A stretch of 64,000 nt of DNA from Trypanosoma brucei (Eukaryota), in contig CP000069.1 of assembly GCA_000002445.1 (NCBI GenBank), positions 576,001 to 640,000 of the forward strand. The letters run 5' to 3'. The notes below the pieces were generated by a model. That model saw nothing but the letters and a program-made list of their open reading frames with translations. It searched no databases and had not been told where the DNA came from. This document shows, piece by piece, positions 5,147 to 45,754 of this stretch; the stretch's first letter is position 1, and each line of letters begins with the position of its first letter. Position numbers and translations under genes: made by a program.

Positions 5147-6170
5147 CACATTCAGCAGCAAAGGTTTTTTGTGGGTAACGTAAAGCAAGAAAATGAAAAA
5201 GTTACTAAGTTGTGTGTATATATATTTATTTATAACTGAATGGACGTTTCCGTTAGAGGATAGACCTTCCTTCTCTCTTTATCCTTCCTTGAGGAAAGGC
5301 AACAACTACTTTGCACAAAAGAAGAAAGTGTTTATGCGACGCCGTAGGCGCTAAGTTAGAGGCGCATACTGACTACTCAAGCAAGAATCGTATGACCGCT
5401 TAATTAAGACCGGGCGTGCACAGCGAGAAGGAATCGCAACCTTCTTCGTTGTTTTTATTTATTACTATGATCACCTCACTCATTCAACGCTTGCCCGTCA
5501 CCACCCCTATTCCGCGCCACTACCATTAACACACAAAACAATCCCAATGTCATTTCCATAACGGCAATATGGAAGCAAAAATGAGAGAAAATTGGAACAT
5601 AAGGAAGAGTTAAAAAACAAGAGATAAGTGACATCAAAGGAAAGAAGGAGGAAAAAAAGGAGTAAACTTCCACACCTTTTTTTCACACTTCACTTACCAT
5701 ATCCTCAACCTTTCCCCCTCTTCACTTGCAAAGCATACAGATGTTGTATTTGTTATTATTTTTTTAAATATATATCCTTTTAAACGCCGTCTCGCATCGT
5801 TATCAATCCGCACATATTCGGCAAGCACACATTCCCCATGGGCATATCAACAAAAGGACTCTTTAAAAAAACAAAAAAAAATATGTGCAATGAGATAAGT
5901 ATATGAGATGTTAGAATCAATGTCCATTATTATATTGTAAAGGCCAAGTGTGGAGGATGGAGGACTTTTTAAAAAAAAAAAGAAAATTGAAAAGCGGCCT
6001 CTCCTCCAAAACGAAACAAAGGGAATAATTTCTGTGAACGACCGAACTCGACGCGAACACCCACTTCAACAAACTCATCCCTCCATGCTCAACTCACACG
6101 TTAAGGCGCACATAAATTTTCAACATATTGCAAACAGCAGCAAAACAGAAAACTTCCTTGTCTTCCATCC

Positions 6171-11943: not shown

Positions 11944-13851
11944 TTACGACGAGCCGCTCCCCAGAGGGTGTGCGACAGGATGAAACATAGTTCTCTTGTC
12001 TTGTATGAAACTACTAACCGCATCATGTGGTGGATTAGCACAAACAGGCCGGCATGTAACGGAGGATCCGCTTCCCAAGTGACACTGCAGAGTAGAAGGA
12101 GCCGCAGGTGATGCCACTTCCGTATTTTCAACTGTTTCAGATACCGGCGGTTGCCCAGCTGGAGTGCGCTCCCATAGGACTTTGCGTTCTGGAGAATGAC
12201 TGGTCGTCCTCGGTACATACGCGAAAACGCGACAACACGTTTCAAGCTTCTCACGGGTACGAGAAACAAGTTGCTCGACTTTGCATCCTGGCGAGGCGAA
12301 CCCTGCGGAAATTCCCCTCAGTTGTGGGAGAAGTGCGAGTTTTATATCGGAATCCTCATGGGCGCTGAGAGGGTTTTCCGCCGTTCGGGAACACCAGCGG
12401 TTCACCATAGCGCGCTGCGTGGCGTAGTATTGCTGCACGAAGGGATTAAGCACTCTATGTGGATGAAGCACCTCTTCACCTACCGTCATCTCCTCTACAA
12501 TTGATGAAACAAGCTCCTGTTCTCTCTGCGCATCGGCCTCCGGAATGTCGCATTCCATTTCCATCTCTTGTAGAGTGGGAAAGCGCAGACAGCGGATCTC
12601 TTCCATGAAAGGTAATCTGGACATGAAAAGTACATCTTCGTCACCTGTCGTTAACGGCACGCAGAGGAACATGTTGGGGTTTCCATCAGTCGATCGGACA
12701 TAACGCACCACCAAGGCTGAATCTTGAGCTGCCAGTGCCTTTACAATGCTTCGGAACGCCCTCGTCCCAACGGGGTCATCATCTAGCGGTGCTATCATGT
12801 ACGATGTATCGACCACCAGCACATGAACAGGAACCTGGTTTTGTGGAATGCAAGCAACAGCATCAATACCCCGTGACCCGCGTATCTTTGTAGCTTCAGA
12901 GAGGCGATTGCTGCTGGAGGCTGTCGGTTTGTTTACGGGAGTCTCCAGACACGTTTGCTGACTGTCCTCTTCCCCGCCTTCTAATCGGAGAGTTTCTTCG
13001 TCAAACAGCTGCGAGTGAGCTGCCTTTCTACTCCCTGGCACTCGTTCAGTCGGTGCTGGTGTCCGATTTGCTGGTACATGCATTCGTCTCACTTTACCGA
13101 GCACGTTCGTAGCTAAGCGCACTTCACCGATTGTGAATACCGTCTTTTGTGCAAGGCTGCGTACTTTTCGGCACACCAACTGCGCAGCGCTCACCAGGGC
13201 ATCACGTAATGTTATTACTCGACTGTCGTTACCCAAAGCCTTACACAAGGTGTACAGTACAGTTTCATTATCAACCTTCACACGGTTACTAGTGAGTGAT
13301 GGGGCTGATGCACCGGGAAGCAGGGAACCTTCACCTGTCACTTGGGAGAAATCAATCCCCACAACAATAAGTGTCACCCCCCGCGCTCGCAGAGCGTTCA
13401 GCACATCGCGGAAGACGCTCTTCCTGACCACCTCAGCATGCGCATCCGTTAAGAGATACAAAACCTCCCTGAATTGCTTTCTTCGTTTCTTCAAGTTAAA
13501 CACCTCTACACATAGAGTAAGAGTTTCAATGAAATTTGCACTGGATCCCACACCCTGTTGCTCCTCCCGGTCACGCAGGATTCGGTGCAGTATTGTGATG
13601 AACTCAACAGATGGTGGAGCCGGCAAACATGGGGCGGAAAGCTGAGCTGCGCTCCCACAAGTACTAACACTCGTTGATGTGCCCCCGCTGTAGCTTCTGC
13701 AACCACCAGCCACAACTAAAGCGACCTCATCATATGAAGAAGGGCACATGGTCTTCAGTACGGAAAGGCGACAGAACTCCACGGCCTGCGCAAGTGAAGA
13801 AATCGAGCAGTTTACGTCTAGGGCGAAAATAGTTGAGGTACGGAAAGCCAT
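11944..13851 (-). CDS. KU80: Ku70/Ku80-family DNA-end-binding protein (probably Ku80)
   Basis: The track start at 13896 is GTG. The first ATG is at 13851 (MAFRTSTIFALDVNC..., a vWA-like N-terminus). The Ku beta-barrel/core resemblance is ALVVRYVRSTDGNPNMFLCVPLTTGDEDVLFMSRLPFMEEIRCLRFP (cf. Ku A(L)xxRYVxR..P.L..L.P...LPFAED.R..FP). The Ku80 assignment rests on recalled T. brucei chr6 synteny and is weaker than the family call. Confidence 0.6.
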   Translation of the reverse strand: MAFRTSTIFALDVNCSISSLAQAVEFCRLSVLKTMCPSSYDEVALVVAGGCRSYSGGTSTSVSTCGSAAQLSAPCLPAPPSVEFITILHRILRDREEQQGVGSSANFIETLTLCVEVFNLKKRRKQFREVLYLLTDAHAEVVRKSVFRDVLNALRARGVTLIVVGIDFSQVTGEGSLLPGASAPSLTSNRVKVDNETVLYTLCKALGNDSRVITLRDALVSAAQLVCRKVRSLAQKTVFTIGEVRLATNVLGKVRRMHVPANRTPAPTERVPGSRKAAHSQLFDEETLRLEGGEEDSQQTCLETPVNKPTASSSNRLSEATKIRGSRGIDAVACIPQNQVPVHVLVVDTSYMIAPLDDDPVGTRAFRSIVKALAAQDSALVVRYVRSTDGNPNMFLCVPLTTGDEDVLFMSRLPFMEEIRCLRFPTLQEMEMECDIPEADAQREQELVSSIVEEMTVGEEVLHPHRVLNPFVQQYYATQRAMVNRWCSRTAENPLSAHEDSDIKLALLPQLRGISAGFASPGCKVEQLVSRTREKLETCCRVFAYVPRTTSHSPERKVLWERTPAGQPPVSETVENTEVASPAAPSTLQCHLGSGSSVTCRPVCANPPHDAVSSFIQDKRTMFHPVAHPLGSGSS

Positions 13852-19674: not shown

Positions 19675-20796
19675 TCCCTCAACCTAATGGATTATTTATT
19701 TTAACAACGTTACACTACACACAAACACACAAACACACACAAACACAACACAGATACACACAGAAATAAATAAATAAAAATATATATATTTGTGTAATTA
19801 TGTGTGCAGCAATAAATTCCAACTCGCTACTGTGAGCCAAATAAAAACGAGTGCTGACAGTACTACTGAAGCCTCCTTAACGCTCAATTCCACCTCTTTG
19901 GGGCTGCCTTTTTTTTTTTTAAATCACGCGGCTAAGCCAAAAAAAAAAGGAAAAAAGGGATGCGGGAAACAAAAGAAATTGCAAGAAAAAAAAAACACTG
20001 ACCCTTTTCCTTTTTTTTTTGAACCTGCCGCTGACGTTCCTGATATCTTCTTGTTTATCACTCGCTAAATCGCTCACCTTCTGTTTGCGGAGATGTGCGG
20101 ATGATTATGTTTTCGTTTATTAATTGTACCTCCCTATTCGATATGTTTTCTTTAATTAATTTTTTTCCTCCCCTTTCCCTTACCTAAATGTATTCACCAA
20201 AGAAATTTTCAAAAGAAAAAAATAATAAAAGGAACAACAACAAAAACAACAAAATGGAGTGAAGGAAACATTCAGTACATTTTATCAATCTTTTTGATCA
20301 TATATATATATATATATATATTATTTATTTATTTTTTTGAATTTCTCACACGATCCCAAGAAACAATCCAACACATACACACACACACACACACAGAGAG
20401 AGGATTGCGAATGGAGAAATAAACATGAAAGCAAACTAAAACCCACCCTTTTAAAATTAATCAAATATATCAGGCATCTTAACATGTTTCATACGCTTTT
20501 GTCACACATGTCACTGAAACACAAGTGTCTGCATATGAATTTATTTTTCTATTTTATTTATTTTTATTTTTTTGGAAGAGGGAGGAAAATGGGATCTTTT
20601 ATTTTTTTTTTTTATTATTTAATTAAAAGCCTGTAAATGGAGATGTGAAAGACACATAAGTGTTAATAGCATTGAGAGTACAAACAAGAAATACAACAAA
20701 AACCCTCATGCGTAGATGTTTATTTACCTAAACGTACGTACATATGCATATGTGTAAGCATTCATAATTATGTTACTGCTCTCCAGCTTTTTTTAA

Positions 20797-20827
<31 letters not shown>

Positions 20828-21486
20828 TGCATATACAACAGCAGAAACGAATCATTTTAAATTCCTTTCGACACATCATTCATTCATTTATCCTTGACGA
20901 CTACAGTCACAACAAAACAATATCAAATTCAACATCATCAAAATGTTTCGTTAGCACTTCCCCGTCTTCCTCCAGTCCTTTTCCTTCTTCTTTTTTACAT
21001 ACCTTCATATTTTAAAATAAATGAACCTTTACTCTTCTTCTTTGTTTTTTTTCTTTGTCCCCCCCCCCTATTCCTACATTAAATGCTCATATCGAAACTG
21101 TTTCAAATCCTTTTTAATACTGCCACGTGTTTATGTCGATACTTTTTAAAAAAAATTTAAAAAATTCTTCAAATGGAATTATTTGGTACCGCTTCTCTTT
21201 TTGCCTCGCTTCATTGACTCATAAGAATGTAAATGTCTAAACATACTAAATATTGTATACATATATAAATAAATAAATAAATAAATATATATATATATAT
21301 ATAAATATTCTGTGTGTCTGTTCGGTGTCTATATTAAATGCTATGGGTGAAAGAAAGCAAGAAAAAGATAGAGGAAAGAGAAGAGAACAGAATACATTAT
21401 CCTCGTAGCGAAAGAATTTTTAGAAAAAAAAAACAACATCAAAAAAAAATAAATAAATATAATTAAGTAAATAGAGCAAACACATA

Positions 21487-21488
<2 letters not shown>

Positions 21489-21528
<40 letters not shown>

Positions 21529-21534
21529 GTGTGT
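21489..21534. repeat. (AT)23 microsatellite
   Basis: Direct reading. Confidence 0.9.
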
Positions 21535-23790
21535 GTAGATAATTATTTATATCATATTTATAGATGTAAATACGAGTATGCATATGCGCATATATATATA
21601 TATATATTTGTTTCTTTTTTATTTTAATATTTATTTATTTGTGTGTATCTGTGTTGTGTGTTGGTGGAAGGAGGGGAGGGGAAAAATGCGGCCTAAAGAA
21701 GAAACAGCAGGGATTTTGTATTTAACAGTTATACGCACCCGCATGGAATTTGGTGTCAATTTCAATAATGAGACAGAGAAGAAGGAAAGAAAAATAAGGA
21801 AGGGGTGAAAATAAAAAAAAGAAAAAAAAGAAAAGAAGGGAAAGAGACAAGGCGGAGTGGAACGAGAGGAAGAAAAAAAAAGGAGGAAAAAAAAGCAACA
21901 AACTATTATTTGAGAAACAGAAAAAAAAAAAAGAGAGTCGAAGCAGTCAACTTTTAAAAACCTCAGTCCCGCCGCCACCATTTACCCATTTACTTCACTC
22001 TCCTTTACCGCCAAATCTACACACTTTCCCTCTTGCAGGGAATTTATGTTTTGTTTTCGTTTATCCTTTTCTTCTTTCTTTTTTTTTCTTCTTGTTTTTT
22101 CCCCCGTTATATAATTAGCAATAACAAAAGTAATAATTTTTTTTAATTTTTACTTGTTATTACTTTTTATTTTTTGTTTACTTTCCTTCCCTGCTTCCCT
22201 TAGCACACAAGCATCCATATATATATATATATATATATAAACAAAAAAACAAAAAAACAAAATACATACGCACGCAAACATATACAAAAATGTTGGTACG
22301 TACACATATACAACTCACACCATCCGTTATTTTAGGCGGAGTCAAACAAAACAAAACAAAAATAGTAGCAACTGTGACAATAACAAAACGAAAAAAAAAA
22401 ACAACAACAGGAAGCGAAACCTGAGACACGAATAGAGACAGAGTAGCAAAGGCAATAACAATAACAATAACAACAATAATAATAAAAGGCTGTAATAACG
22501 CCAACACTGACAAAAATCATAATATATATATATATATATATATATAGATGTATGCATTGTATATTAGTAAAGATTGTTGTGGAAGCAGCAACTATAGTAA
22601 AAAAAAAAAGAAAAGCGTACACACGAAACGCAAAGTAATTGCTGTTGCCCTAATAATAATAAGTAATAGTAACAATATTGGAAGTTATGGGAAAGAGCAA
22701 GCGAGCGAGTAAAGGGACGGAGAGGTGCGAGTTTTGTAAACACACACACAAAAAAAATTAAAACAAAGAAGAGAAAATCAGACGGCAAAAATAACTGGAT
22801 CTTCAGCGATGCACATGATTTGACATTGGTATAGCGATGTCTCCACTTAGTTCAGTTTACGTTTGCAAGCTTACATCTCTTTCTCTCTCTCTCTTCCTCT
22901 TTTTTTAAAAAAAAAAATTATCGTCATTATTATTATTATTATTTTTTTTATTACTGGACGTGACACAACTATTCTTTTTGTTTTCTCCCCATCCTCTCTT
23001 TCTATCTTTTACCAAATTGAACCATCACATGCCCCATTTATATTTTTCACTTTCTTTCACTTCTTATTTACTCACTACCGTTACGTAATGGAAAAGTCTC
23101 TGCCGATGGATTTGCACCAAAAGTGATTAAATTCAAAGAGGAAGAGAGAAAAATAAGAATAAAAAGTGAAATAAAATGAAAGAGGCTTATAAAACTAAAT
23201 AAATACATATTTATTCATATATAAGTAAAAATATAAATAAATAAATAAATGATATTCTTTCTATTTTTCAAGTTTAAATAGAACCCTCTCCCTTCTTCTC
23301 CCCATCTCATGTCTTCTCTTCGCTGCATCTCATCCCGCACTTCACACACACAACATATACAAACACACATATAAATACATGAAAATACCAATATATAAAT
23401 ATATAAATATATAGATATATATAGATATATATAGATATATTTATATATACACGAATTTATATAAACCCCAACCCATTCTCCAACTTTCTCCCCTCTTTTA
23501 ACTACTGCCACCACTGTTCTCATATGCCTCTATATTTTATTTTATTTTATTTTTTAGTTGCTGTTTTCGCTTCTTGTGAAGAAAAGAAAACACATGAAAC
23601 ATAAATAAATAAAAATAAAATAAAAAAGAAGTTTGTTGCCGCTTGATCTCTTTCTCTCTCTCTCTCCCCTCCCCTTCCGCTCCACCGCGCGTTTACGCGT
23701 GAGCAAAACATGTGCACTTGTCCATTTGCCTCTACGCATTGCTAAACAAAACAAAGCATTTAAATTGCAAAATAAAACACAAAAAACAAA

Positions 23791-23852
23791 ACACACACAC
23801 ACACACACACAAACACAAACACACAAACAAACAAACAAACAAACAAACAAAC
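23791..23852. repeat. Compound microsatellite (AC)10 ... (CAAA)7
   Basis: Direct reading. Confidence 0.9.
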
Positions 23853-26261
23853 AGACGCACAATTGTACCTACAAATCATCAACACCAACAGAAATAGTAA
23901 CAACACTGACACCGACAACAACAACAACAACAACAACAACAACAGGGATGATCATAACGGTAAAGAAACATAAACCAGAAAGAAAACAAAACAAAAAGGA
24001 AGAAGGGGACAAACAACAAATGTGTGAGCCTTGAACATGTTACTCTCTTCCTTATTCACGGGTGGTACAATGTCTTGTTTCTCTTTTTTTTTCTTTTTTA
24101 TTTGCGATTTTTTTTTTAAAAATAAATTTCATTTTATTTACGTGCGATGCTGAGGTTGCCGCTTGCTGCCATCTGCTTAAGTTGCGGTTTAATTATTTTT
24201 CCATACTCTCAGTATCCCTCAAACACACACAATCACACAAATACAGATGATTGTCCTTTTTCCTCTTTTAATTTCCCAAATAAATTACTCTATACAATAC
24301 ATAAATACAAATAAAAATAATATGAATGTTTGAACTTTTCTTTAATTTTGTCTTTTGTAATAAAAATATATATATTTTTTCACCCCCTCCCCCTCTGCTT
24401 TATTTCTTGTCCACTTGATCTCTGTTTATGCATTACTGTTATCAATATTATTTATTCATTTACTTATTTATTTTTCTTGCTTGTAAGTAGTATTTGACAT
24501 TGCTATCACTTACTTACTACATCTATTTGCTCTTTTACTCTTTTACCTTTCACTCTTTCTTTTCTTTCTTTTCTTTTCTTTTCTTTGCTTTGCTTATAAT
24601 TTATTTGTTTTGTTTTAGTGCCCTCCTCTCTCTCTCTCTCTCTCCTTTTTTTAATTTTTTTCTCTTTTTTTTTCGGTCATTAACTTCTTCCTTTTCTTTT
24701 GCCTTAGCATTTTTTTCCCTCCCGCTTTATTATTAGATATATTACATTTATCTCTTGACTTTCATCCATTTGCTCACTTCACCCACTTGTTTATTTTCTC
24801 TCCCTTTCTTTTGTTGGTTTTGTTGGTTCCCATTTTATTCGAATCCACACTCCATTCCATTCCATTCCATTTCTCTTTCCTTTCCCTCCTTTTTTTTTCT
24901 CCTTTTTATTATTATTATTTTAAAATTATTCTTCCTTTCCATCTCATACAAAATACGTCACTTTTCCTCCCCGTCCCAACAACAACAAAAAAAGAAAAAA
25001 AAAAGCACACCTCCGATGAATATATATATATATATATATTTATTTATTTTTATTTATTTATTTATTTATTTTTATTTATTTATAAATATATATATGAAAT
25101 AAAACAAATCAAACAAAAAAAGAATGAACCATGAGAAACATGAAAAATAAAAAATCAAAAGAAAAGATATCATACGCTCCTCTTACTTTCCTCCAAATAT
25201 TTTTTCCTCTCCCGTTGAATAGTGATGTTTTATACTTTTCTTAAAGATAAAAGCGTTAATTCCCTTTTCCTTTTTTCCTTTTTTCTTTCGTTTTTTTTTT
25301 AAATCTCATGTCTTCTCGCCTCCATTCCTTTTTTTCATTTTGTTTGTTTCAATTTTATTCTTTCCTCATCTTGTCATTTATATTTCATATTTCTCTCTCC
25401 TCTTTTTTTTTTGTTTTTACCCCCACACGAATATTCACCACCGACACTTTTATGAGGGAGGGAAAAAAAAAAAGAAAACTCAACTTACAATGAAAGAAAA
25501 TTCCTCACATTGGTTTTTCTTTTTTTTTTTATTTTTTTTTTGGTACATGAGAAATATAAAAGAAAACGATCAGCATCGCCGCCGTGACTCATGTTAAAAA
25601 AAAAGGAAGTAAAAAAAAAAAAGGAAGTGAAAAAAAAAAAGGAGAAAAAAAATGAAAAAATGAGTTCGGCGGAACGAGGACCAATCAGCGAGGAACACAT
25701 ATTCATTATTATGGAATAATTTAGTTTGGTACACACACGAAAAGTAAATAATAAACAAATAACACAAGAAGAAAGAAAAAAAAGAAAAATGAGAACAATA
25801 TTTAAGAAATGGGTATGGATAATTATGGTCACAAAGAAAGCATAAAATATTGAAATGGTATTTTTTTTTTCAAAAAAAAAAAAGCAAGAAAAAAATTCTA
25901 AGGAGAAGCCACTGCTACAAGCAAAAAAAACAAAAGTAGCAATTACGGGAAACAAACAAACAAACAAACGAAAGTAACAAGGAGCATAAAAGAAGAGATG
26001 ATACAAACTCATCTCCACTCCACCCCCACAGAAGGAAGAAGAAGGGAAAATGGAAGAAGGGGAAAATGGAAATGGAAAATGGAACAAGCGGAAAAATAAC
26101 AACAACAACAACAACAACAACAACGCAAAGACACAAATAAGCAAGCACACGAAAGAAACAAAAAGGAAGGTATTAAATGGGACATGGCAGACGTATGGGG
26201 AGAGAGGGAAAGAAAGAAAGAAAGGTAAAGAGACAAAGGAGGAGAATACAGCGCAACTATT

Positions 26262-37256: not shown

Positions 37257-37402
37257 TCTCCACGACAACAGAAAAACAAAGGGAAGAACAAATTGTTTCT
37301 ACTACAAGGAAAAAAAATATTTAAAAAAAGTGAGAAAACATTATTCAAAATTGTAAAAATATATATATTAAAAGAAAAAAAAATTAAAAAAACTTTTCAC
37401 CA

Positions 37403-40400
37403 TCATCATGCTCATTATATAATGCAAAGAAAGGGGGAAGATATCAGTCCCGTGCTTATGATAGGTAGCTTAGTGCACGGATGCCTAATTCATTTGAAAA
37501 TAATACAAATGCCTCGATTGTTAGCATCATCTGCACATACACTCAAATATATATATACACACACACACAAACCATCAGAATGTTATGGATGTAAAGTTGC
37601 ATCTAACCTCAATGGGTATCCTGTGGAGCGGCATCGATAAGTACAGTCGCCAAGGGACCTTTAATAATGAGGTGTAAATGTATTCACTCCACTCTCCCAC
37701 AGGCAAGTCCGTCACATGGACAATCAGCGTGTCCCGCAACGGTGCAACCCGCGGTACACAGTAAACAATAACAAACGTCGACGCGTACACCTCAGCGTTT
37801 CCTCTCATCAACAACATGATCAGGTGTATAATTAAATAACAACATCATTGGCGCCGCAATTCAGTTTCAATAAGTGTCGATAAAGTTGCAACCGCAAATT
37901 CATCACGATCACGCACAGTGTAAATGGTCATATGAAGGAAGACTAGATAGAAAAAGGGAATTGAGATAAATCACACACACGAAGATGGAGCCCACAATAA
38001 CTATATGAGCTCTCGCGGGTCCGATTGAGGCCGTCACAGCACCAAAGAGTTACCGCCGCCGCCTCACCCACGGGGCTCGCTCAGATAAGATAACACACGC
38101 ACACACATATATATTTATATATATGTAACTGGGTATGCAGGTGATAATAGCAGAAACAGATATGGTGGTGGTTTTTCTCAACTCTCGGGTAGCACAGGTG
38201 CAGACGCAGTGATTGACGTAAGCAAAACGCCTGTGTTTTCGCTAGCCTTCAGCGTACTATGGCAAAAAAAAAAAGCAATCATCATTCGCCTCCAAGGTAG
38301 TGTATAGCATAAACATGGCACGGGTAAAGTGACTATTGGAGAAACAAAAGAAAAGTAAGTGAATAAAAGCGAGGGAGGGGGGAATATAGTAGAGTCAGTG
38401 AATCCTTGTATGAAGGCATCGTCGCAGTTCTTCTGTCATTGCATTTTTCAGATACCACAGGAATTGCACGTATGATCATCATGCTCATTATATAATGCAA
38501 AGAGAGGGGGAAGATATCAGTCCCGTGCTTATGATAGGTAGCTTAGTGCACGGATGCCTAATTCATTTGAAAATCATACAAATGCCTCGATTGTTAGCAT
38601 CATCTGCACATACACTCAAATATATATATATACACACACACAAACCATCAGAATGTTATGGATGTAAAGTTGCATCTAACCTCAATGGGTATCCTGTGGA
38701 GCGGCATCGATAAGTACAGTCGCCAAGGGACCTTTAATAATGAGGTGTAAATGTATTCACTCCACTCTCCCACAGGCAAGTCCGTCACATGGACAATCAG
38801 CGTGTCCCGCAACGGTGCAACCCGCGGTACACAGTAAACAATAACAAACGTCGACGCGTACACCTCAGCGTTTCCTCTCATCAACAACATGATCAGGTGT
38901 ATAATTAAATAACAACATCATTGGCGCCGCAATTCAGTTTCAATAAGTGTCGATAAAGTTGCAACCGCAAATTCATCACGATCACGCACAGTGTAAATGG
39001 TCATGTGAAGGAAGACTAGATAGAAAAAGGGAATTGAGATAAATCACACACACGAAGATGGAGCCCACAATAACTATATGAGCTCTCGCGGGTCCGATTG
39101 AGGCCGTCACAGCACCAAAGAGTTACCGCCGCCGCCTCACCCACGGGGCTCGCTCAGATAAGATAACACACGCACACACATATATATTTATATATATGTA
39201 ATTGGGTATGCAGGTGATAATAGCAGAAACAGATATGGTGGTGGTTTTTCTCAACTCTCGGGTAGCACAGGTGCAAACGCAGTGATTGACGTAAGCAAAA
39301 CGCCTGTGTTTTCGCTAGCCTTCAGCGTACTATGGCAGAAAAAAAAAGCAATCATCATTCGCCTCCAAGGTAGTGTATAGCATAAACATGGCACGGGTAA
39401 AGTGACTATTGAAGAAACAAAAGAAAAGTAAGTGAATAAAAGCGAGGGAGGGGGGAATATAGTAGAGTCAGTAAATCCTTGTATGAAGGCATCGTCGCAG
39501 TTCTTCTGTCATTGCATTTTTCAGATACCACAGGAATTGCACGTATGATCATCATGCTCATTATATAATGCAAAGAGAGGGGGAAGATATCAGTCCCGTG
39601 CTTATGATAGGTAGCTTAGTGCACGGATGCCTAATTCATTTGAAAATCATACAAATGCCTCGATTGTTAGCATCATCTGCACATACACTCAAATATATAT
39701 ATACACACACACACAAACCATCAGAATGTTATGGATGTAAAGTTGCATCTAACCTCAATGGGTATCCTGTGGAGCGGCATCGATAAGTACAGTCGCCAAG
39801 GGACCTTTAATAATGAGGTGTAAATGTATTCACTCCACTCTCCCACAGGCAAGTCCGTCACATGGACAATCAGCGTGTCCCGCAACGGTGCAACCCGCGG
39901 TACACAGTAAACAATAACAAACGTCGACGCGTACACCTCAGCGTTTCCTCTCATCAACAACATGATCAGGTGTATAATTAAATAACAACATCATTGGCGC
40001 CGCAATTCAGTTTCAATAAGTGTCGATAAAGTTGCAACCGCAAATTCATCACGATCACGCACAGTGTAAATGGTCATGTGAAGGAAGACTAGATAGAAAA
40101 AGGGAATTGAGATAAATCACACACACGAAGATGGAGCCCACAATAACTATATGAGCTCTCGCGGGTCCGATTGAGGCCGTCACAGCACCAAAGAGTTACC
40201 GCCGCCGCCTCACCCACGGGGCTCGCTCAGATAAGATAACACACGCACACACATATATATTTATATATATGTAATTGGGTATGCAGGTGATAATAGCAGA
40301 AACAGATATGGTGGTGGTTTTTCTCAACTCTCGGGTAGCACAGGTGCAGACGCAGTGATTGACGTAAGCAAAACGCCTGTGTTTTCGCTAGCCTTCAGCG

Positions 40401-43153
40401 TACTATGGCAGAAAAAAAAAGCAATCATCATTCGCCTCCAAGGTAGTGTATAGCATAAACATGGCACGGGTAAAGTGACTATTGAAGAAACAAAAGAAAA
40501 GTAAGTGAATAAAAGCGAGGGAGGGGGGAATATAGTAGAGTCAGTAAATCCTTGTATGAAGGCATCGTCGCAGTTCTTCTGTCATTGCATTTTTCAGATA
40601 CCACAGGAATTGCACGTATGATCATCATGCTCATTATATAATGCAAAGAAAGGGGGAAGATATCAGTCCCGTGCTTATGATAGGTAGCTTAGTGCACGGA
40701 TGCCTAATTCATTTGAAAATCATACAAATGCCTCGATTGTTAGCATCATCTGCACATACACTCAAATATATATACACACACACACAAACCATCAGAATGT
40801 TATGGATGTAAAGTTGCATCTAACCTCAATGGGTATCCTGTGGAGCGGCATCGATAAGTACAGTCGCCAAGGGACCTTTAATAATGAGGTGTAAATGTAT
40901 TCACTCCACTCTTCCACAGGCAAGTCCGTCACATGGACAATCAGCGTGTCCCGCAACGGTGCAACCCGCGGTACACAGTAAACAATAACAAACGTCGACG
41001 CGTACACCTCAGCGTTTCCTCTCATCAACAACATGATCAGGTGTATAATTAAATAACAACATCATTGGCGCCGCAATTCAGTTTCAATAAGTGTCGATAA
41101 AGTTGCAACCGCAAATTCATCACGATCACGCACAGTGTAAATGGTCATATGAAGGAAGAATAGATAGAAAAAGGGAATTGAGATATATCACACACACGAA
41201 GATGGAGCCCACAATAACTATATGAGCTCTCGCGGGTCCGATTGAGGCCGTCACAGCACCAAAGAGTTACCGCCGCCGCCTCACCCACGGGGCTCGCTCA
41301 GATAAGATAACACACGCACACACATATATATTTATATATATGTAACTGGGTATGCAGGTGATAATAGCAGAAACAGATATGGTGGTGGTTTTTCTCAACT
41401 CTCGGGTAGCACAGGTGCAGACGCAGTGATTGACGTAAGCAAAACGCCTGTGTTTTCGCTAGCCTTCAGCGTACTATGGCAGAAAAAAAAAGCAATCATC
41501 ATTCGCCTCCAAGGTAGTGTATAGCATAAACATGGCACGGGTAAAGTGACTATTGGAGAAACAAAAGAAAAGTAAGTGAATAAAAGCGAGGGAGGGGGGA
41601 ATATAGTAGAGTCAGTAAATCCTTGTATGAAGGCATCGTCGCAGTTCTTCTGTCATTGCATTTTTCAGATACCACAGGAATTGCACGTATGATCATCATG
41701 CTCATTATATAATGCAAAGAAAGGGGGAAGATATCAGTCCCGTGCTTATGATAGGTAGCTTAGTGCACGGATGCCTAATTCATTTGAAAATCATACAAAT
41801 GCCTCGATTGTTAGCATCATCTGCACATACACTCAAATATATATACACACACACACAAACCATCAGAATGTTATGGATGTAAAGTTGCATCTAACCTCAA
41901 TGGGTATCCTGTGGAGCGGCATCGATAAGTACAGTCGCCAAGGGACCTTTAATAATGAGGTGTAAATGTATTCACTCCACTCTCCCACAGGCAAGTCCGT
42001 CACATGGACAATCAGCGTGTCCCGCAACGGTGCAACCCGCGGTACACAGTAAACAATAACAAACGTCGACGCGTACACCTCAGCGTTTCCTCTCATCAAC
42101 AACATGATCAGGTGTATAATTAAATAACAACATCATTGGCGCCGCAATTCAGTTTCAATAAGTGTCGATAAAGTTGCAACCGCAAATTCATCACGATCAC
42201 GCACAGTGTAAATGGTCATATGAAGGAAGAATAGATAGAAAAAGGGAATTGAGATATATCACACACACGAAGATGGAGCCCACAATAACTATATGAGCTC
42301 TCGCGGGTCCGATTGAGGCCGTCACAGCACCAAAGAGTTACCGCCGCCGCCTCACCCACGGGGCTCGCTCAGATAAGATAACACACGCACACACATATAT
42401 ATTTATATATATGTAACTGGGTATGCAGGTGATAATAGCAGAAACAGATATGGTGGTGGTTTTTCTCAACTCTCGGGTAGCACAGGTGCAGACGCAGTGA
42501 TTGACGTAAGCAAAACGCCTGTGTTTTCGCTAGCCTTCAGCGTACTATGGCAGAAAAAAAAAAGCAATCATCATTCGCCTCCAAGGTAGTGTATAGCATA
42601 AACATGGCACGGGTAAAGTGACTATTGGAGAAACAAAAGAAAAGTAAGTGAATAAAAGCGAGGGAGGGGGGAATATAGTAGAGTCAGTGAATCCTTGTAT
42701 GAAGGCATCGTCGCAGTTCTTCTGTCATTGCATTTTTCAGATACCACAGGAATTGCACGTATGATCATCATGCTCATTATATAATGCAAAGAAAGGGGGA
42801 AGATATCAGTCCCGTGCTTATGATAGGTAGCTTAGTGCACGGATGCCTAATTCATTTGAAAATCATACAAATGCCTCGATTGTTAGCATCATCTGCACAT
42901 ACACTCAAATATATATATACACACACACACAAACCATCAGAATGTTATGGATGTAAAGTTGCATCTAACCTCAATGGGTATCCTGTGGAGCGGCATCGAT
43001 AAGTACAGTCGCCAAGGAACCTTTAATAATGAGGTGTAAATGTATTCACTCCACTCTCCCACAGGCAAGTCCGTCACATGGACAATCAGCGTGTCCCGCA
43101 ACGGTGCAACCCGCGGTACACAGTAAACAATAACAAACGTCGACGCGTACATT
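37403..43153. repeat. Head-to-tail tandem array: about 5.4 copies of a 1,073-bp (1,071-1,074) unit with over 99% identity between copies; non-coding; candidate snoRNA gene cluster
   Basis: Identical landmarks recur at a 1073-bp period (track ORFs 37575/38648/39721/40792/41863/42937 on the minus strand and 38495/39568/42784 on the plus strand). The first copy is 5'-truncated at about 37403 and the last ends mid-unit at about 43153. Each unit has an internal (TA)n/(CA)n and a GC-rich block (gagctctcgcgggtccgattgaggccgtcacagcacc...). Confidence 0.95.
38388..38492 (-). ncRNA. Candidate C/D-box snoRNA, one per repeat unit (homologous positions about 39460..39565, 40530..40636, 41603..41709 and 42677..42783); the copy in unit 1 is truncated
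   Basis: On the minus strand the C box ATGATGA is the reverse complement of plus 38476-38482. A CTGA D' box lies 24 nt downstream (38451..38448) and a CTGA D box a further about 50 nt (38398..38395). A short GAG/CTC terminal stem flanks the C and D boxes. The length of about 100 nt and the strand match the polycistron. Three further perfect minus-strand UGAUGA boxes per unit (plus about 38874, 38964 and 39352) have CUGA 35-80 nt downstream. This is a prediction only. Confidence 0.3.
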
Positions 43154-43566: not shown

Positions 43567-44391
43567 CTATGCTACAACGTCTGATTCGTCGGCACCCATA
43601 GATGTTACATCGGAGGAAAGTTGCTCTAATTCTGTCACCTTGTCCTCGACGAAACTATGAACACATTCATCCAACTGCTGGTGGAGTTCGCGTGATGCGG
43701 TCTCATCGATTCCTGATTCCTGAAGAGCTCTCGACGCTTGTGTGCGGACCTGCTTTACTTTGTTTTTGAAAGACGACACGACAAGTTGTATTTCTTCCAC
43801 CGCTTTCTGTCGCCGTGCTGTCGTTATAGGTGGCATTGTGATTTTTATCTTCTGTTGCTCCTTGGAGACCTGCAGGGTCCCGTCAAACCGTGTAACTCTC
43901 TGTAAAATAGGCGAGGCAAAGCTTACATTTTGTGGCACTACTTCCATTGTAGCGGCGCCCGTCTTCAAAACCTGGGCCACTTTAGTGAGAAGCACTTTGC
44001 GCCCCCCGCCCACATCCACATCCAACTGTTCCAAACATTTTGCCATATTCAACACCTTCATGGCGCTCACGTTCGCCCGCTCAAAGTGGTGTTGAAAAAC
44101 TTGCTCCAATTCCTCCGGCACGTCTTCGCTGACGACTGTCTCAGCTTCTTGCAGTAAGTTCTCCTTTTCCGCCTTTTGCTCCCGTGACTTTCCCGACCGT
44201 CGCTCCGATCGTTCCTCGAACGTAAGCCGTCGAGACTCTCCACGGTCACCGCGCCGCACATCCTTCAAGCGTTGAATTGTGGAATTGAAGGGAAACGATC
44301 CAACGAGTCGCAAGGCGGTGAGTTGCTGGTGGTGCCGTGCAATATTCCACCACCGTATCGAGCCGGCTGCAGCTAGCAGCATCCGACGCAT
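43567..44391 (-). CDS. Mitochondrial ribosome recycling factor (RRF/Frr family)
   Basis: The C-terminal two-thirds aligns with bacterial RRF: VGGGRKVLL...KIKITMPPITTARRQKAVEEIQLVVSSFKNKVKQVRTQASRAL versus ...[39 protein letters not shown]. The track ORF reaches an upstream ATG at 44595, but those 68 aa look non-protein-like. An internal ATG at 44391 gives an MRRMLLAAAGSIRWWNIARHH presequence typical of kinetoplastid mitochondrial import. The alternative start is 44595. Confidence 0.75.
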   Translation of the reverse strand: MRRMLLAAAGSIRWWNIARHHQQLTALRLVGSFPFNSTIQRLKDVRRGDRGESRRLTFEERSERRSGKSREQKAEKENLLQEAETVVSEDVPEELEQVFQHHFERANVSAMKVLNMAKCLEQLDVDVGGGRKVLLTKVAQVLKTGAATMEVVPQNVSFASPILQRVTRFDGTLQVSKEQQKIKITMPPITTARRQKAVEEIQLVVSSFKNKVKQVRTQASRALQESGIDETASRELHQQLDECVHSFVEDKVTELEQLSSDVTSMGADESDVVA

Positions 44392-45754
44392 GCTTACTGC
44401 GCTGGAGTCACCACACAAGGACGGTATATTAAAAAGGCAAAGGGGGAATAAATTGGAAGACTTGTGTGAAAAGTGCAGTAAATACGTTCCTGCTCCTATC
44501 CATATAGACCACACGATAGACAATGAAGTAGAAGTGTCTGTCGTGTGATCTATATGGCGCTGACTTCCTCGAAGCCCATACACACAACTAAACATTTACG
44601 CCATTCTTAATGTTACCTCTTTCGCATCGCAAAGTGTTAGTCGCGCACTGGGTGTGTTGTGGTCCACTGTGTTTTTTTTTTCTCTCTACAACCCGCCGGA
44701 AAAACTGTGGCTCTGCTTGCGATTATATCTCGCTCGCGCTTCCACAAGCATAGCCCAAGTATGTACCTTACTTGGCCCACGCACGTACATACAAATAAAT
44801 TAATATATAAATATATATATATGTGTGTGTGGGAGACGTTCCTCTTTGATTTGTTTTTTTTTCCTTGTTCCATAGCTCTCTCATCTCCACATATTTTCAC
44901 CCTCCCCTCCGCTGCCCTGTCACGTTCCTCCCACGAGAACCAAAAGGGACGTAAATGCTAACATCTCTACAGTTGTGCAAACGACCCTTGTTATTTCCGA
45001 GTGGAGTGATGTGTGCGGCAGTGGCAGAATGCGAAAGGAGAGTAAAGGAAAATGAGTATCAGTCAAGTACGATAATTACGCCTTTGTCTCGGGTTCATTT
45101 TTTTTTAAAAAAAAGTTAAATTTCTTTCTTTTTTCCCCTGGTGAAGACTCTTTTTCATTCCTTCTACCCATCCCATTGATCCTGGCGTTTATACTTGTTG
45201 ACGACCTGCTTCATGATTTCCCATATTAGTAATTTTTATTCACGTTCCTTTTGTTGTTACGATTGTGCTTTTCCTCCCCTTTTCTGTCCACTTTCCCTTC
45301 CCTTCCCATAAGCCTCACATGCAAACTCTCACAACGTTAACTTTCCCGTACTGCCTCAGTTTGTGCGCGCGAGTTGAAAAGTGGATGTAAAGAATGAGAA
45401 ACGGGTGAAAAACAGAGGGAGAACACTAATGCACGTTTCTCCAACGCTTCTCCTTTACCCCTCTCAACACACGGTTACACCACAAATTCTCGCAAAGCGT
45501 CAAAAAGATGAAAAAGACGCAACTTCACAAACGCACCAATTACGCCCTCGTCAGACGTCGTGACACAGTGAAAGACAGACTGCCGCTGGGGTCCTATCTA
45601 CTCCCTCGAGACGCTTTACGACATGCACGGGCGCGGCTATGTTGTATGAACGAAGCACCTGAGAAGACGGGAAGCATAAAAACCACTAACCAAAATAAAT
45701 GAGTGATGGTGTTGGCCGCCTCCTCCACAAGTAACAAAACGCACGCCCTCACGC

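What the first reader, a model, noticed from the sequence alone, without database searches (positions are those of the whole stretch)
37403..43153. 5.75-kb near-perfect tandem array (5.4 x 1,073 bp) between QSOX and the mitochondrial RRF gene: candidate multi-snoRNA cluster
This is the only high-copy, high-identity repeat in the window.
- **Structure.** Copies differ by a handful of SNPs and (TA)n/(CA)n length changes. Unit 4 has ctcttccacagg where the others have ctctcccacagg. Units 4 and 5 share gaagaatag and gatatatcac and are 1071 bp. This points to concerted evolution, with units 4 and 5 as the most recent duplicates. The array is truncated at both ends.
- **snoRNA signatures.** There are perfect UGAUGA C boxes only on the minus (transcribed) strand, four per unit, and none on the plus strand. 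Each has CUGA D/D' boxes at snoRNA-like spacings downstream. The best candidate has C, D' and D at +0, about 28 and about 85 nt, with a GAG/CTC terminal stem.
- **Alternatives.** Kinetoplastid snoRNAs are known to lie in tandemly reiterated clusters inside Pol II polycistrons, which fits. I found no match to the spliced-leader exon, 5S rRNA or tRNA features. The conserved 72-aa (+) and 80-aa (-) ORFs overlap each other and are probably conserved only because the DNA is. If the array is not a snoRNA cluster, it is an unexplained repeated non-coding element inside a transcription unit and would be more interesting.
Basis: partly seen in the sequence, partly recalled or inferred. Interest (0 to 1): 0.7.

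Follow-up and report, generated by a model that had tools for sequence, protein, structure and literature searches.

The report
Known trypanosome snoRNA gene cluster TB6Cs1
The 5.75-kb tandem repeat is the already described Trypanosoma brucei TB6Cs1 cluster, about 5.4 copies of a unit encoding seven small nucleolar RNAs that guide ribosomal RNA methylation and pseudouridylation, so it is real but ordinary.

Summary
Window 37402-43151 is a head-to-tail array of 5.36 units of 1071-1073 bp. The five full units differ at only 15 alignment columns. The interpretation as a snoRNA cluster is correct, and the cluster is already known.

- **Rfam hits.** There are 17 hits above gathering score, all on the minus strand: TB6Cs1H1, TB6Cs1H3 and TB6Cs1H4.
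- **Published primer.** A TB6Cs1H3 primer matches the array.
- **Unit content.** Each unit carries seven genes in the order C1-H1-H2-C2-H3-H4-C3, three box C/D and four single-hairpin AGA-box H/ACA-like. That gives 38 gene copies in all.
- **C/D targets.** On kinetoplastid-like LSU rDNA from metagenomes, one guide of each C/D RNA pairs over 11-12 bp. The fifth-nucleotide rule places the target exactly at the published sites LSUβ Cm1264 (C1), Am400 (C2) and Am545 (C3).
- **H/ACA targets.** The H2 pocket fits the A-loop U, the yeast snR10 site named in the literature. The H1 pocket also finds a site. H3 and H4 stayed unresolved.
- **Conservation.** Only the seven genes are conserved in T. vivax and T. 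cruzi. The spacers are not.
Two of the four UGAUGA motifs per unit are not genes. C3 uses a variant UGAUGC box, and the H/ACA-like genes were missed.

Novelty: none. Interest: low.

The parts
37402..43151 (-). Tandem array of 5.36 units of 1071-1073 bp: the TB6Cs1 snoRNA cluster
   Evidence: repeat structure; Rfam
42681..42775 (-). TB6Cs1C1 box C/D snoRNA, copy 1 (C box UGAUGA, D' CUGA, D CUGA, GAG/CUC ends). The D' guide AUUCCUGUGGUA targets LSUβ C1264
   Evidence: guide plus D' box is exact in L. major
41609..41703 (-). TB6Cs1C1 copy 2
40538..40632 (-). TB6Cs1C1 copy 3
39465..39559 (-). TB6Cs1C1 copy 4
38392..38486 (-).
37402..37413 (-). Truncated sixth C1 copy. Only GAGCAUGAUGAU remains, and it marks the 3' edge of the array
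42471..42536 (-). TB6Cs1H1 H/ACA-like snoRNA copy 1
   Evidence: RF01546, 86.5 bits
41400..41465 (-). TB6Cs1H1 copy 2
40329..40394 (-). TB6Cs1H1 copy 3
39256..39321 (-). TB6Cs1H1 copy 4 (one SNP, 81.9 bits)
38183..38248 (-). TB6Cs1H1 copy 5
42295..42370 (-). TB6Cs1H2 H/ACA-like snoRNA copy 1. It has no Rfam model. It is a single hairpin with an AGA box, and its pocket GUGGGUG/CAAUC fits LSU GAUUG-UU-CACCCAC
41224..41299 (-). TB6Cs1H2 copy 2
40153..40228 (-). TB6Cs1H2 copy 3
39080..39155 (-). TB6Cs1H2 copy 4
38007..38082 (-). TB6Cs1H2 copy 5
42103..42201 (-). TB6Cs1C2 box C/D snoRNA copy 1 (C UGAUGA, D' CUGA, C' UGAUGU, D CUGA). The D guide UUUAAUUAUACA targets LSUβ A400
41032..41130 (-). TB6Cs1C2 copy 2
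39961..40059 (-). TB6Cs1C2 copy 3
38888..38986 (-). TB6Cs1C2 copy 4
37815..37913 (-). TB6Cs1C2 copy 5
43055..43117 (-). TB6Cs1H3 H/ACA-like snoRNA copy 1
   Evidence: RF01547, 83.9 bits
41981..42043 (-). TB6Cs1H3 copy 2
40910..40972 (-). TB6Cs1H3 copy 3. It carries a G-to-A variant next to the AGA box and is the only copy that matches the published primer exactly
39839..39901 (-). TB6Cs1H3 copy 4
38766..38828 (-). TB6Cs1H3 copy 5
37693..37755 (-). TB6Cs1H3 copy 6
42964..43036 (-). TB6Cs1H4 H/ACA-like snoRNA copy 1 (89.9 bits)
   Evidence: RF01548
41890..41962 (-). TB6Cs1H4 copy 2
40819..40891 (-). TB6Cs1H4 copy 3
39748..39820 (-). TB6Cs1H4 copy 4
38675..38747 (-). TB6Cs1H4 copy 5
37602..37674 (-). 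TB6Cs1H4 copy 6
42803..42897 (-). TB6Cs1C3 box C/D snoRNA copy 1 (variant C box UGAUGC, variant D' AUGA, D CUGA, internal hairpin CCGUGC/GCACGG). The D' guide CGAGGCAUUUG targets LSUβ A545
41731..41825 (-). TB6Cs1C3 copy 2
40660..40754 (-). TB6Cs1C3 copy 3
39587..39681 (-). TB6Cs1C3 copy 4
38514..38608 (-). TB6Cs1C3 copy 5
37441..37535 (-). TB6Cs1C3 copy 6
43567..44595 (-). Upstream neighbour in the same transcription direction: ribosome recycling factor gene
   Evidence: PF01765
35676..37268 (-). Downstream neighbour: quiescin sulfhydryl oxidase gene. These are mechanical ORF limits and the true start is probably further in
   Evidence: PF22220, PF04777, PF00085

Best explanation
The array is the TB6Cs1 snoRNA gene cluster of Trypanosoma brucei chromosome 6.

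**Content.** Each 1.07-kb unit encodes seven small nucleolar RNAs on the minus strand, in the order C1, H1, H2, C2, H3, H4, C3.

**Expression (inferred from established trypanosomatid biology and from gene orientation, not shown here).** The genes have no promoters of their own. RNA polymerase II reads through the array as part of the long minus-strand polycistron that runs from the recycling-factor gene to the QSOX gene. Nucleases then cut the individual snoRNAs out of the spacer RNA.

**Box C/D RNAs (shown here by sequence complementarity).** C1, C2 and C3 pair through a 11-12-nt guide next to a D or D' box with large-subunit rRNA. By the usual rule, methylation falls on the nucleotide opposite the fifth guide position. 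That gives LSUβ C1264 (C1), A400 (C2) and A545 (C3). Published RNAi and cross-linking work also implicates C3 in rRNA processing downstream of LSUβ.

**H/ACA-like RNAs.** H1-H4 are single hairpins with an internal pocket and a 3' AGA box, and they direct pseudouridylation. The H2 pocket fits the A-loop uridine of LSU rRNA 14 nt from AGA, and the H1 pocket fits ACAGGU-U-N-GUUUU. The targets of H3 and H4 were not resolved here.

**Why it is repeated (inferred).** Tandem reiteration with near-identical units supplies gene dosage in an organism with little control of transcription initiation at individual genes.
For: **Identity**
- Rfam gives 17 minus-strand hits at 82-94 bits, against gathering scores of 40-60, to TB6Cs1H1, H3 and H4. 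There are no other hits in the 64 kb.
- The published TB6Cs1H3 antisense primer CACTCTTCCACAGGCAAGTC matches the plus strand at 40907-40926 exactly. It matches the five other units with one mismatch.
- The literature names TB6Cs1 C1-C3 and H1-H4, cites Liang et al. 2005 for H1-H4, shows reads over the cluster, and reports all seven as expressed.

**C/D targets**
- 51 LSU contigs were fetched with a T. brucei LSUβ 582-603 sequence that contains no guide target. About 14 of them match other published T. brucei LSUβ primers with 0-2 mismatches.
- One contig, L042, is confirmed as a eukaryotic SSU-5.8S-LSU unit.
- An unconstrained fifth-nucleotide scan of six contigs gave three clear results. C1 D' pairs over 12 bp with UACCACAGGGAU. 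C2 D pairs over 12 Watson-Crick bp with the target at position 400 in 6 of 6 contigs. C3 D' pairs over 11 Watson-Crick bp with the target at position 545 in 5 of 6.
- Anchoring on the published primer LSUβ 1236-1255 puts the C1 target at C1264.
- These are exactly the published sites and bases: Cm1264, Am400 and Am544/545.

**H/ACA-like genes**
- H2 pairs over 5+7 Watson-Crick bp with GAUUG-UU-CACCCAC, 14 nt from AGA. This agrees with the published statement that H2 guides the yeast snR10 site at the tip of the peptidyl transferase centre.
- H1 pairs over 6+5 bp.
- Hairpins are conserved with compensatory changes in H1, H3 and H4.

**Conservation and context**
- Only the seven genes are conserved in T. 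vivax and T. cruzi.
- The RRF-cluster-QSOX synteny is kept in T. b. gambiense and L. major.
- All flanking genes lie on the minus strand.
Against: Nothing contradicts the identification. There are limits.
- The rRNA used is from uncultured bodonid-like kinetoplastids, not from T. brucei itself. T. brucei numbering was carried over from published primer positions.
- Shuffled-guide controls are only moderate: 10, 4 and 21 of 200 shuffles reach the observed duplex score. The weight therefore rests on the coincidence of positions with published sites.
- The second guide of each C/D RNA (C1 D, C2 D', C3 D) found no target.
- The pockets of H3 and H4 gave nothing above decoy level.
- H2 shows no double compensatory change across three species.
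- The mature 5' and 3' ends, Pol II read-through and processing were not tested here.
- The copy number of 5.36 is that of this assembly and may be collapsed or variable. T. b. gambiense shows about four units, with Ns in the array.
Confidence: 0.97

Rival explanations
1. The array is a C/D-only cluster with four box C/D snoRNAs per unit, one per perfect UGAUGA motif.
For: There are four perfect UGAUGA motifs per unit, on the minus strand only, each followed by a CUGA.
Against: - In the unit 39559-38487, the UGAUGA at 39357 has its CUGA after 30 nt and runs straight into H1. The one at 38883 has its CUGA after 13 nt and lies 10 nt after the D box of C2. Both are too short for a C/D RNA.
- Neither is conserved in T. 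vivax or T. cruzi.
- Neither has rRNA complementarity above shuffles.
- Rfam and structure analysis show four H/ACA-like genes per unit.
- The third C/D gene uses UGAUGC.
Confidence: 0.02
2. The array is a non-coding satellite or degenerate mobile element that merely contains snoRNA-like motifs by chance.
For: The units are highly identical, the spacers carry microsatellites, and the ends are truncated.
Against: - Covariance-model scores are 82-94 bits with E-values down to 1e-20.
- Conservation across species is confined to the gene intervals while the spacers diverge.
- Guide targets coincide with three published methylation sites.
- Expression is published for all seven RNAs.
Confidence: 0.005
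3. The repeat encodes small proteins, the 72-aa (+) and 80-aa (-) ORFs.
For: The ORFs recur in the units.
Against: - The plus-strand ORF is cut to 56 aa by a 2-bp microsatellite indel in the two 1071-bp units.
- The 80-aa ORF starts inside a UGAUGA motif and lies over the H3 and H4 genes.
- The ORFs recur only because the DNA is repeated.
Confidence: 0.005

Closest known systems
TB6Cs1 snoRNA cluster of Trypanosoma brucei (attributed to Liang et al. 2005, RNA 11:619; reads over the cluster in Michaeli et al. 2012, PMC3273796, Fig. 3A; Rfam RF01546, RF01547, RF01548)
   Same: It is the same locus. It has the same seven RNAs (C1-C3, H1-H4), the same published primer sequence and the same predicted rRNA targets. 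It is repeated in tandem inside a polycistron.
   Different: No difference of kind. This copy shows 5.36 units and a handful of SNPs between units. One of these is a G/A variant next to the AGA box of H3, and a single unit carries the published primer's version.
Syntenic snoRNA clusters between RRF and QSOX in other trypanosomatids (T. vivax L008, T. cruzi L003/L007, T. grayi L006, L. major L005)
   Same: They occupy the same position downstream of the recycling-factor gene. Orthologues of H1, H2, C2 (its 3' part), H3, H4 and C3, plus the start of C1 at the contig end, are found in T. vivax. H1, H2 and C3 are found in T. cruzi. C1 is found in L. major, with its D' guide and box identical over 17 nt.
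   Different: Gene content and unit length differ. L. major has a 458-464-bp unit with a C1 orthologue plus another C/D RNA. T. cruzi, T. grayi and T. theileri have a GP63 gene between RRF and QSOX, or directly after RRF where QSOX is not in the fetched locus.
Yeast snR10 (H/ACA) and snR13 (C/D)
   Same: H2 is aimed at the same A-loop uridine as snR10, as stated in PMC4855143. C3 is aimed at the A in CAAAUGCCUCG. From my own recollection, this corresponds to yeast 25S Am2281, which snR13 guides.
   Different: Yeast H/ACA RNAs have two hairpins with H and ACA boxes, whereas the trypanosome RNAs have one hairpin with AGA. The yeast genes are mostly independently transcribed or lie in introns, not in tandem arrays.

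Membership tests
Rfam TB6Cs1H1 / TB6Cs1H3 / TB6Cs1H4 (RF01546-RF01548) | Covariance-model score at or above the curated gathering score over the full model | tested here: met
   17 full-length hits at 81.9-93.9 bits, against gathering scores of 40, 40 and 60
TB6Cs1 cluster (locus identity) | Contains the published set C1, C2, C3, H1, H2, H3, H4 and matches published sequence | tested here: met
   Seven conserved genes per unit. The published H3 primer matches exactly at 40907-40926. Predicted targets equal the published C1, C2, C3 and H2 targets
Box C/D snoRNA | C box (RUGAUGA) near the 5' end and D box (CUGA) near the 3' end, with short complementary termini | tested here: met
   C1 has AUGAUGA...CUGA with GAG/CUC ends. 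C2 has GUGAUGA...CUGA with CGUGA/UCAUG ends. C3 has the variant AUGAUGC, invariant in three species, and a CUGA D box
Box C/D snoRNA | A guide of at least 10 nt directly upstream of D or D', complementary to rRNA, with a known 2'-O-methylated nucleotide opposite guide position 5 | tested here: met
   C1 D' gives 12 bp and C1264. C2 D gives 12 bp and A400. C3 D' gives 11 bp and A545, on kinetoplastid-like LSU rDNA. The published Nm sites are Cm1264, Am400 and Am544/545. The second guide of each RNA found no target
Box C/D snoRNA | Accumulates as a stable RNA of about 70-100 nt bound by fibrillarin/NOP56/NOP58/Snu13 | not testable with these tools
   Published RPKM values exist for C1, C2 and C3 in small-RNP libraries. 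No reads were analysed here
Trypanosomatid single-hairpin H/ACA-like snoRNA | A single hairpin with an internal loop, followed by an AGA box near the 3' end | tested here: met
   Folds and consensus structures of H1-H4 all end in AGA. Compensatory pairs are seen in H1, H3 and H4. The exact 3' end, expected 3 nt after AGA, was not testable
Trypanosomatid single-hairpin H/ACA-like snoRNA | Bipartite pocket complementary to rRNA around an unpaired U that lies 14-16 nt upstream of the AGA box | tested here: inconclusive
   Met for H2 (5+7 Watson-Crick bp, 14 nt from AGA) and H1 (6+5 bp, 14 nt). H3 and H4 gave nothing above decoy level on bodonid-like rDNA
Tandemly reiterated snoRNA cluster inside a Pol II polycistron (trypanosomatid arrangement) | Head-to-tail repeated units on the same strand as the flanking protein-coding genes | tested here: met
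   5.36 units. All snoRNA genes are on the minus strand, as are all but two overlapped ORFs of at least 200 aa
Tandemly reiterated snoRNA cluster inside a Pol II polycistron (trypanosomatid arrangement) | Transcribed by read-through and released by nucleolytic processing, with no promoter of its own | not testable with these tools
   Rests on established knowledge of trypanosomatid snoRNA expression. No transcription data are available here

The most novel reading that the evidence does not exclude
The guide elements that found no target in mature rRNA may act on other RNAs, such as pre-rRNA spacers. These are the C1 D guide, the C2 D' guide, and the conserved C3 hairpin loop AGCUACCUA next to its D box. 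C1 is among the most abundant snoRNAs (97th percentile) yet has no published processing role in the papers read here. For C3, an ITS6 interaction is already published, so only the C1 and C2 part would be new.
Probability: 0.2. Interest if true: 0.3.

Novelty: already known. Interest (0 to 1): 0.08.

Why it matters
The finding matters only as annotation. It shows that the one high-copy repeat in the window is a described snoRNA cluster, and it gives coordinates for all 38 gene copies. That includes H2 and the three C/D genes, which Rfam does not cover. It also shows that counting perfect UGAUGA/CUGA boxes both over-calls and under-calls trypanosome snoRNAs. Here it gave two false boxes per unit, missed one variant-box gene, and missed all the H/ACA-like genes.

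Tried and rejected
- **Tandem Repeats Finder** found nothing because its longest period is 500. The repeat finder was used instead.
- **A permissive Rfam search** of the array added no C/D family. Rfam has no models for TB6Cs1C1-C3 or H2.
- **The founding paper and the Leishmania paper** (PMC1370750, PMC1828925) are not held. The supplements of PMC3273796 are not held as text, and those of PMC9283944 do not mention TB6Cs1.
- **The first metagenome scan** required the predicted C2 and C3 targets 120-148 nt apart, with the C2 target written as the full reverse complement of the guide. It found nothing. Kinetoplastid LSU has C, not G, opposite guide position 1.
- **E. coli rRNA** was considered as a stand-in target and dropped, because the relevant segments differ between bacteria and eukaryotes.
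- **A generic pocket scan** for H1, H3 and H4 gave scores at decoy level. Using pockets taken from consensus structures recovered a site for H1 only.
- **L. major and T. theileri** gave no Rfam hit at gathering score. L. major also gave none in the permissive search. Its C1 orthologue was found by guide-motif search instead.
- **The serial order in a published table** (C1, H1, H2, C2, C3, H3, H4) differs from the genomic order found here (C1, H1, H2, C2, H3, H4, C3). Names were assigned by target, not by that list.

Full report
**1. The observation**

- The repeat finder shows six in-register copies with start-to-start spacings of 1073, 1073, 1071, 1071 and 1072-1074 bp.
- Local alignment of the flanks against a unit puts the edges at 43151 and 37402. 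That is 5750 bp, or 5.36 units.
- The five complete units differ at only 15 alignment columns, with 2-12 differences per pair.
- Tandem Repeats Finder returned nothing only because its longest period is 500.

- The CTCTTCCACAGG variant occurs in a single unit.
- GAAGAATAG and GATATATCAC are confined to the two 1071-bp units.
- TGATGA occurs 21 times on the minus strand and never on the plus strand. CTGA occurs 53 times against 0.
- The 72-aa and 80-aa ORFs exist.
- The neighbours are a quiescin sulfhydryl oxidase and a ribosome recycling factor, both on the minus strand.

**2. What it is**

A scan of the whole window against Rfam gave 17 matches above gathering score. All lie inside the array, all on the minus strand, and all are full length:
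- six copies of TB6Cs1H4 (90-94 bits, gathering score 60);
- six copies of TB6Cs1H3 (82.5-84 bits, gathering score 40);
- five copies of TB6Cs1H1 (82-86.5 bits, gathering score 40).

A permissive search added nothing, and there are no tRNAs. The array is therefore the TB6Cs1 snoRNA cluster of Trypanosoma brucei.

The literature held here treats this cluster as known.
- Michaeli et al. 2012 (PMC3273796) show the reads over "the TB6Cs1 snoRNA cluster" in their Figure 3A. They also report that RNAi of TB6Cs1C3 disturbs rRNA processing downstream of LSUβ.
- PMC9283944 lists TB6Cs1C1, C2 and C3 as guides for LSUβ Cm1264, Am400 and Am544/545.
- PMC4855143 lists TB6Cs1H1-H4 with read counts and cites Liang et al. 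2005 for them. Its primer for TB6Cs1H3 matches the plus strand at 40907-40926 exactly, and the other five units with one mismatch.
- PMC6411936 Table S2 gives expression values for all seven RNAs.

**3. Anatomy of one unit**

Rfam has no model for H2 or for the three C/D RNAs, so I located them independently.

*Conservation.* I fetched the regions downstream of the recycling-factor gene in other trypanosomatids and compared one unit with them by BLAST. Only discrete blocks are conserved.
- H1 is conserved in T. vivax, T. cruzi and T. grayi.
- A 74-nt block at 39155-39082 is conserved in T. vivax and T. cruzi.
- The 3' part of a C/D candidate at 38926-38893 is conserved in T. vivax.
- H3, H4 and a C/D candidate ending at 38515 are conserved in T. 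vivax. The C/D candidate is also conserved in T. cruzi.
- The spacers are not conserved.

*H2.* The 74-nt block folds into a single hairpin with an internal loop and an AGA box. Its loop strands are invariant in three species. It is H2.

*Gene order.* On the minus strand the order is C1, H1, H2, C2, H3, H4, C3. Coordinates for all 38 copies came from motif matching and Rfam.

*C3.* Its C box is UGAUGC and its D' box is AUGA. Both are invariant in T. brucei, T. vivax and T. cruzi. So are a 16-nt D' guide and an internal hairpin, CCGUGC/GCACGG.

*C1.* Its D' guide plus box, AUUCCUGUGGUAUCUGA, recurs exactly three times, 458 bp apart, between the recycling-factor and QSOX genes of Leishmania major.

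**4. Do the guides fit rRNA?**

No T. brucei rRNA is available to the tools, so I worked from published primers.
- Primer positions in PMC6411936 Table S1 give short T. brucei LSUβ sequences with coordinates.
- I scanned metagenome contigs for LSUβ 582-603, a segment that contains no guide target, and obtained 51 contigs.
- About 14 of them also match other T. brucei LSUβ primers with 0-2 mismatches, so they are kinetoplastid-like.
- One contig, L042, was confirmed as a eukaryotic SSU-5.8S-LSU unit.

I then scanned six whole contigs for the longest duplex obeying the fifth-nucleotide rule.

| Guide | Duplex | Target |
|---|---|---|
| C1 D' | 12 bp, one G·U, with UACCACAGGGAU | second C of UACCAC |
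| C2 D | 12 Watson-Crick bp with UGUAUAAUUAAA | position 400 in 6 of 6 contigs |
| C3 D' | 11 Watson-Crick bp with CAAAUGCCUCG | position 545 in 5 of 6 contigs |

With the primer anchor LSUβ 1236-1255 = AUCAUACCAGAGGUGUCAGA, followed by A(A/U)AAUUACCAC, the C1 target is C1264. These three positions and bases are exactly those published for C1, C2 and C3.

The shuffled-guide controls are only moderate: 10, 4 and 21 of 200 shuffles reach the observed score. The decisive point is the coincidence with three published sites. The other guide of each RNA, and the two extra UGAUGA motifs, found nothing above shuffles.

For the H/ACA-like RNAs the results were as follows.
- The H2 pocket pairs over 5+7 Watson-Crick bp with GAUUG-UU-CACCCAC, with the U 14 nt from AGA. 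This is the A-loop site. PMC4855143 says TB6Cs1H2 guides the site that snR10 guides in yeast.
- The H1 pocket pairs over 6+5 bp with ACAGGU-UG-GUUUU, downstream of the H2 site. That order agrees with the order of rows in the published table.
- H3 and H4 were not resolved on this foreign rDNA.

**5. How it works**

*Shown here:* seven snoRNA genes per unit, all on the strand of the surrounding genes; guide-target fits for C1, C2, C3, H1 and H2.

*From the literature read here:* all seven RNAs accumulate. C1 and C3 are among the most abundant snoRNAs, while H1 from the same unit is far rarer in the same libraries. C3 depletion affects rRNA processing.

*Inferred from established trypanosomatid biology:* the array is transcribed by read-through as part of the polycistron, and the snoRNAs are excised. 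Reiteration provides dosage. The different steady-state levels must be set after transcription.

**6.

The cluster call and the best candidate (C1) were right. Three details were not.
- Two of the four UGAUGA motifs per unit are not genes. In the unit 39559-38487 they sit at 39357 and 38883.
- C3 was missed because of its variant boxes.
- More than half of the genes are H/ACA-like.

The ORFs are by-products. The plus-strand ORF is frameshifted in two units, and the 80-aa ORF overlies H3 and H4.

**7. Novelty and score**

This is an already described locus with curated Rfam families. Nothing in its structure departs from what is known of trypanosomatid snoRNA clusters. The residual open points are the orphan guides and the H3 and H4 sites. 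They reflect the limits of the data available here, not anomalies. Interest is low.

Noticed in passing
L006 7499-7685 and 10732-10918 (T. grayi); L007 12069-14195 (T. cruzi); L004 11033-13360 (T. theileri): In T. grayi, T. cruzi and T. theileri a GP63 (Peptidase_M8) gene follows the RRF gene, where T. brucei has only snoRNA units before QSOX. In T. grayi a 187-nt segment containing H1 is duplicated on both sides of the GP63 gene, 3233 bp apart.
   Followed up: partly
L005 11688-13139 (L. major): There is a tandem array of three 458-464-bp units between RRF and QSOX. Each unit has a C1 orthologue with an exact D' guide and a second C/D-like RNA (about 11946-12040). Rfam gives no hit there.
   Followed up: partly
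window 40907-40926: The published TB6Cs1H3 primer matches only this one unit exactly. The other five copies carry G instead of A two bases before the AGA box, so the published sequence corresponds to the minority variant of this assembly.
   Followed up: yes
window 38514-38608 (and the other C3 copies): C3 has an internal hairpin, CCGUGC/GCACGG, enclosing a loop whose core AGCUACCUA is invariant in T. brucei, T. vivax and T. cruzi. The segment directly upstream of its D box found no match in mature rRNA. A published ITS6 interaction may involve this part.
   Followed up: partly
window 19700-25500: This is a stretch of about 5.8 kb with no ORF of 200 aa or more. It is rich in (TA)n, (CA)n and AAAT-type microsatellites and sits inside an otherwise gene-dense minus-strand polycistron.
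   Followed up: no
window 1582-1920: An 84-nt direct repeat (three copies at 94-100% identity plus degenerate ones) lies inside the 1290-aa minus-strand ORF 1316-5188. It implies a 28-aa protein repeat.
   Followed up: no
window 1-64000: All but two ORFs of at least 200 aa lie on the minus strand, and the two plus-strand ORFs overlap or adjoin longer minus-strand ORFs. The window therefore appears to lie within one directional gene cluster with no strand switch.
   Followed up: partly
L001 11485-15337 (T. b. gambiense): The same cluster has only four H3/H4 and three H1 copies. The spacing is irregular (about 1100, 1498 and 1101 bp) and there are Ns in the array, so copy number differs between assemblies or is collapsed.
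   Followed up: no
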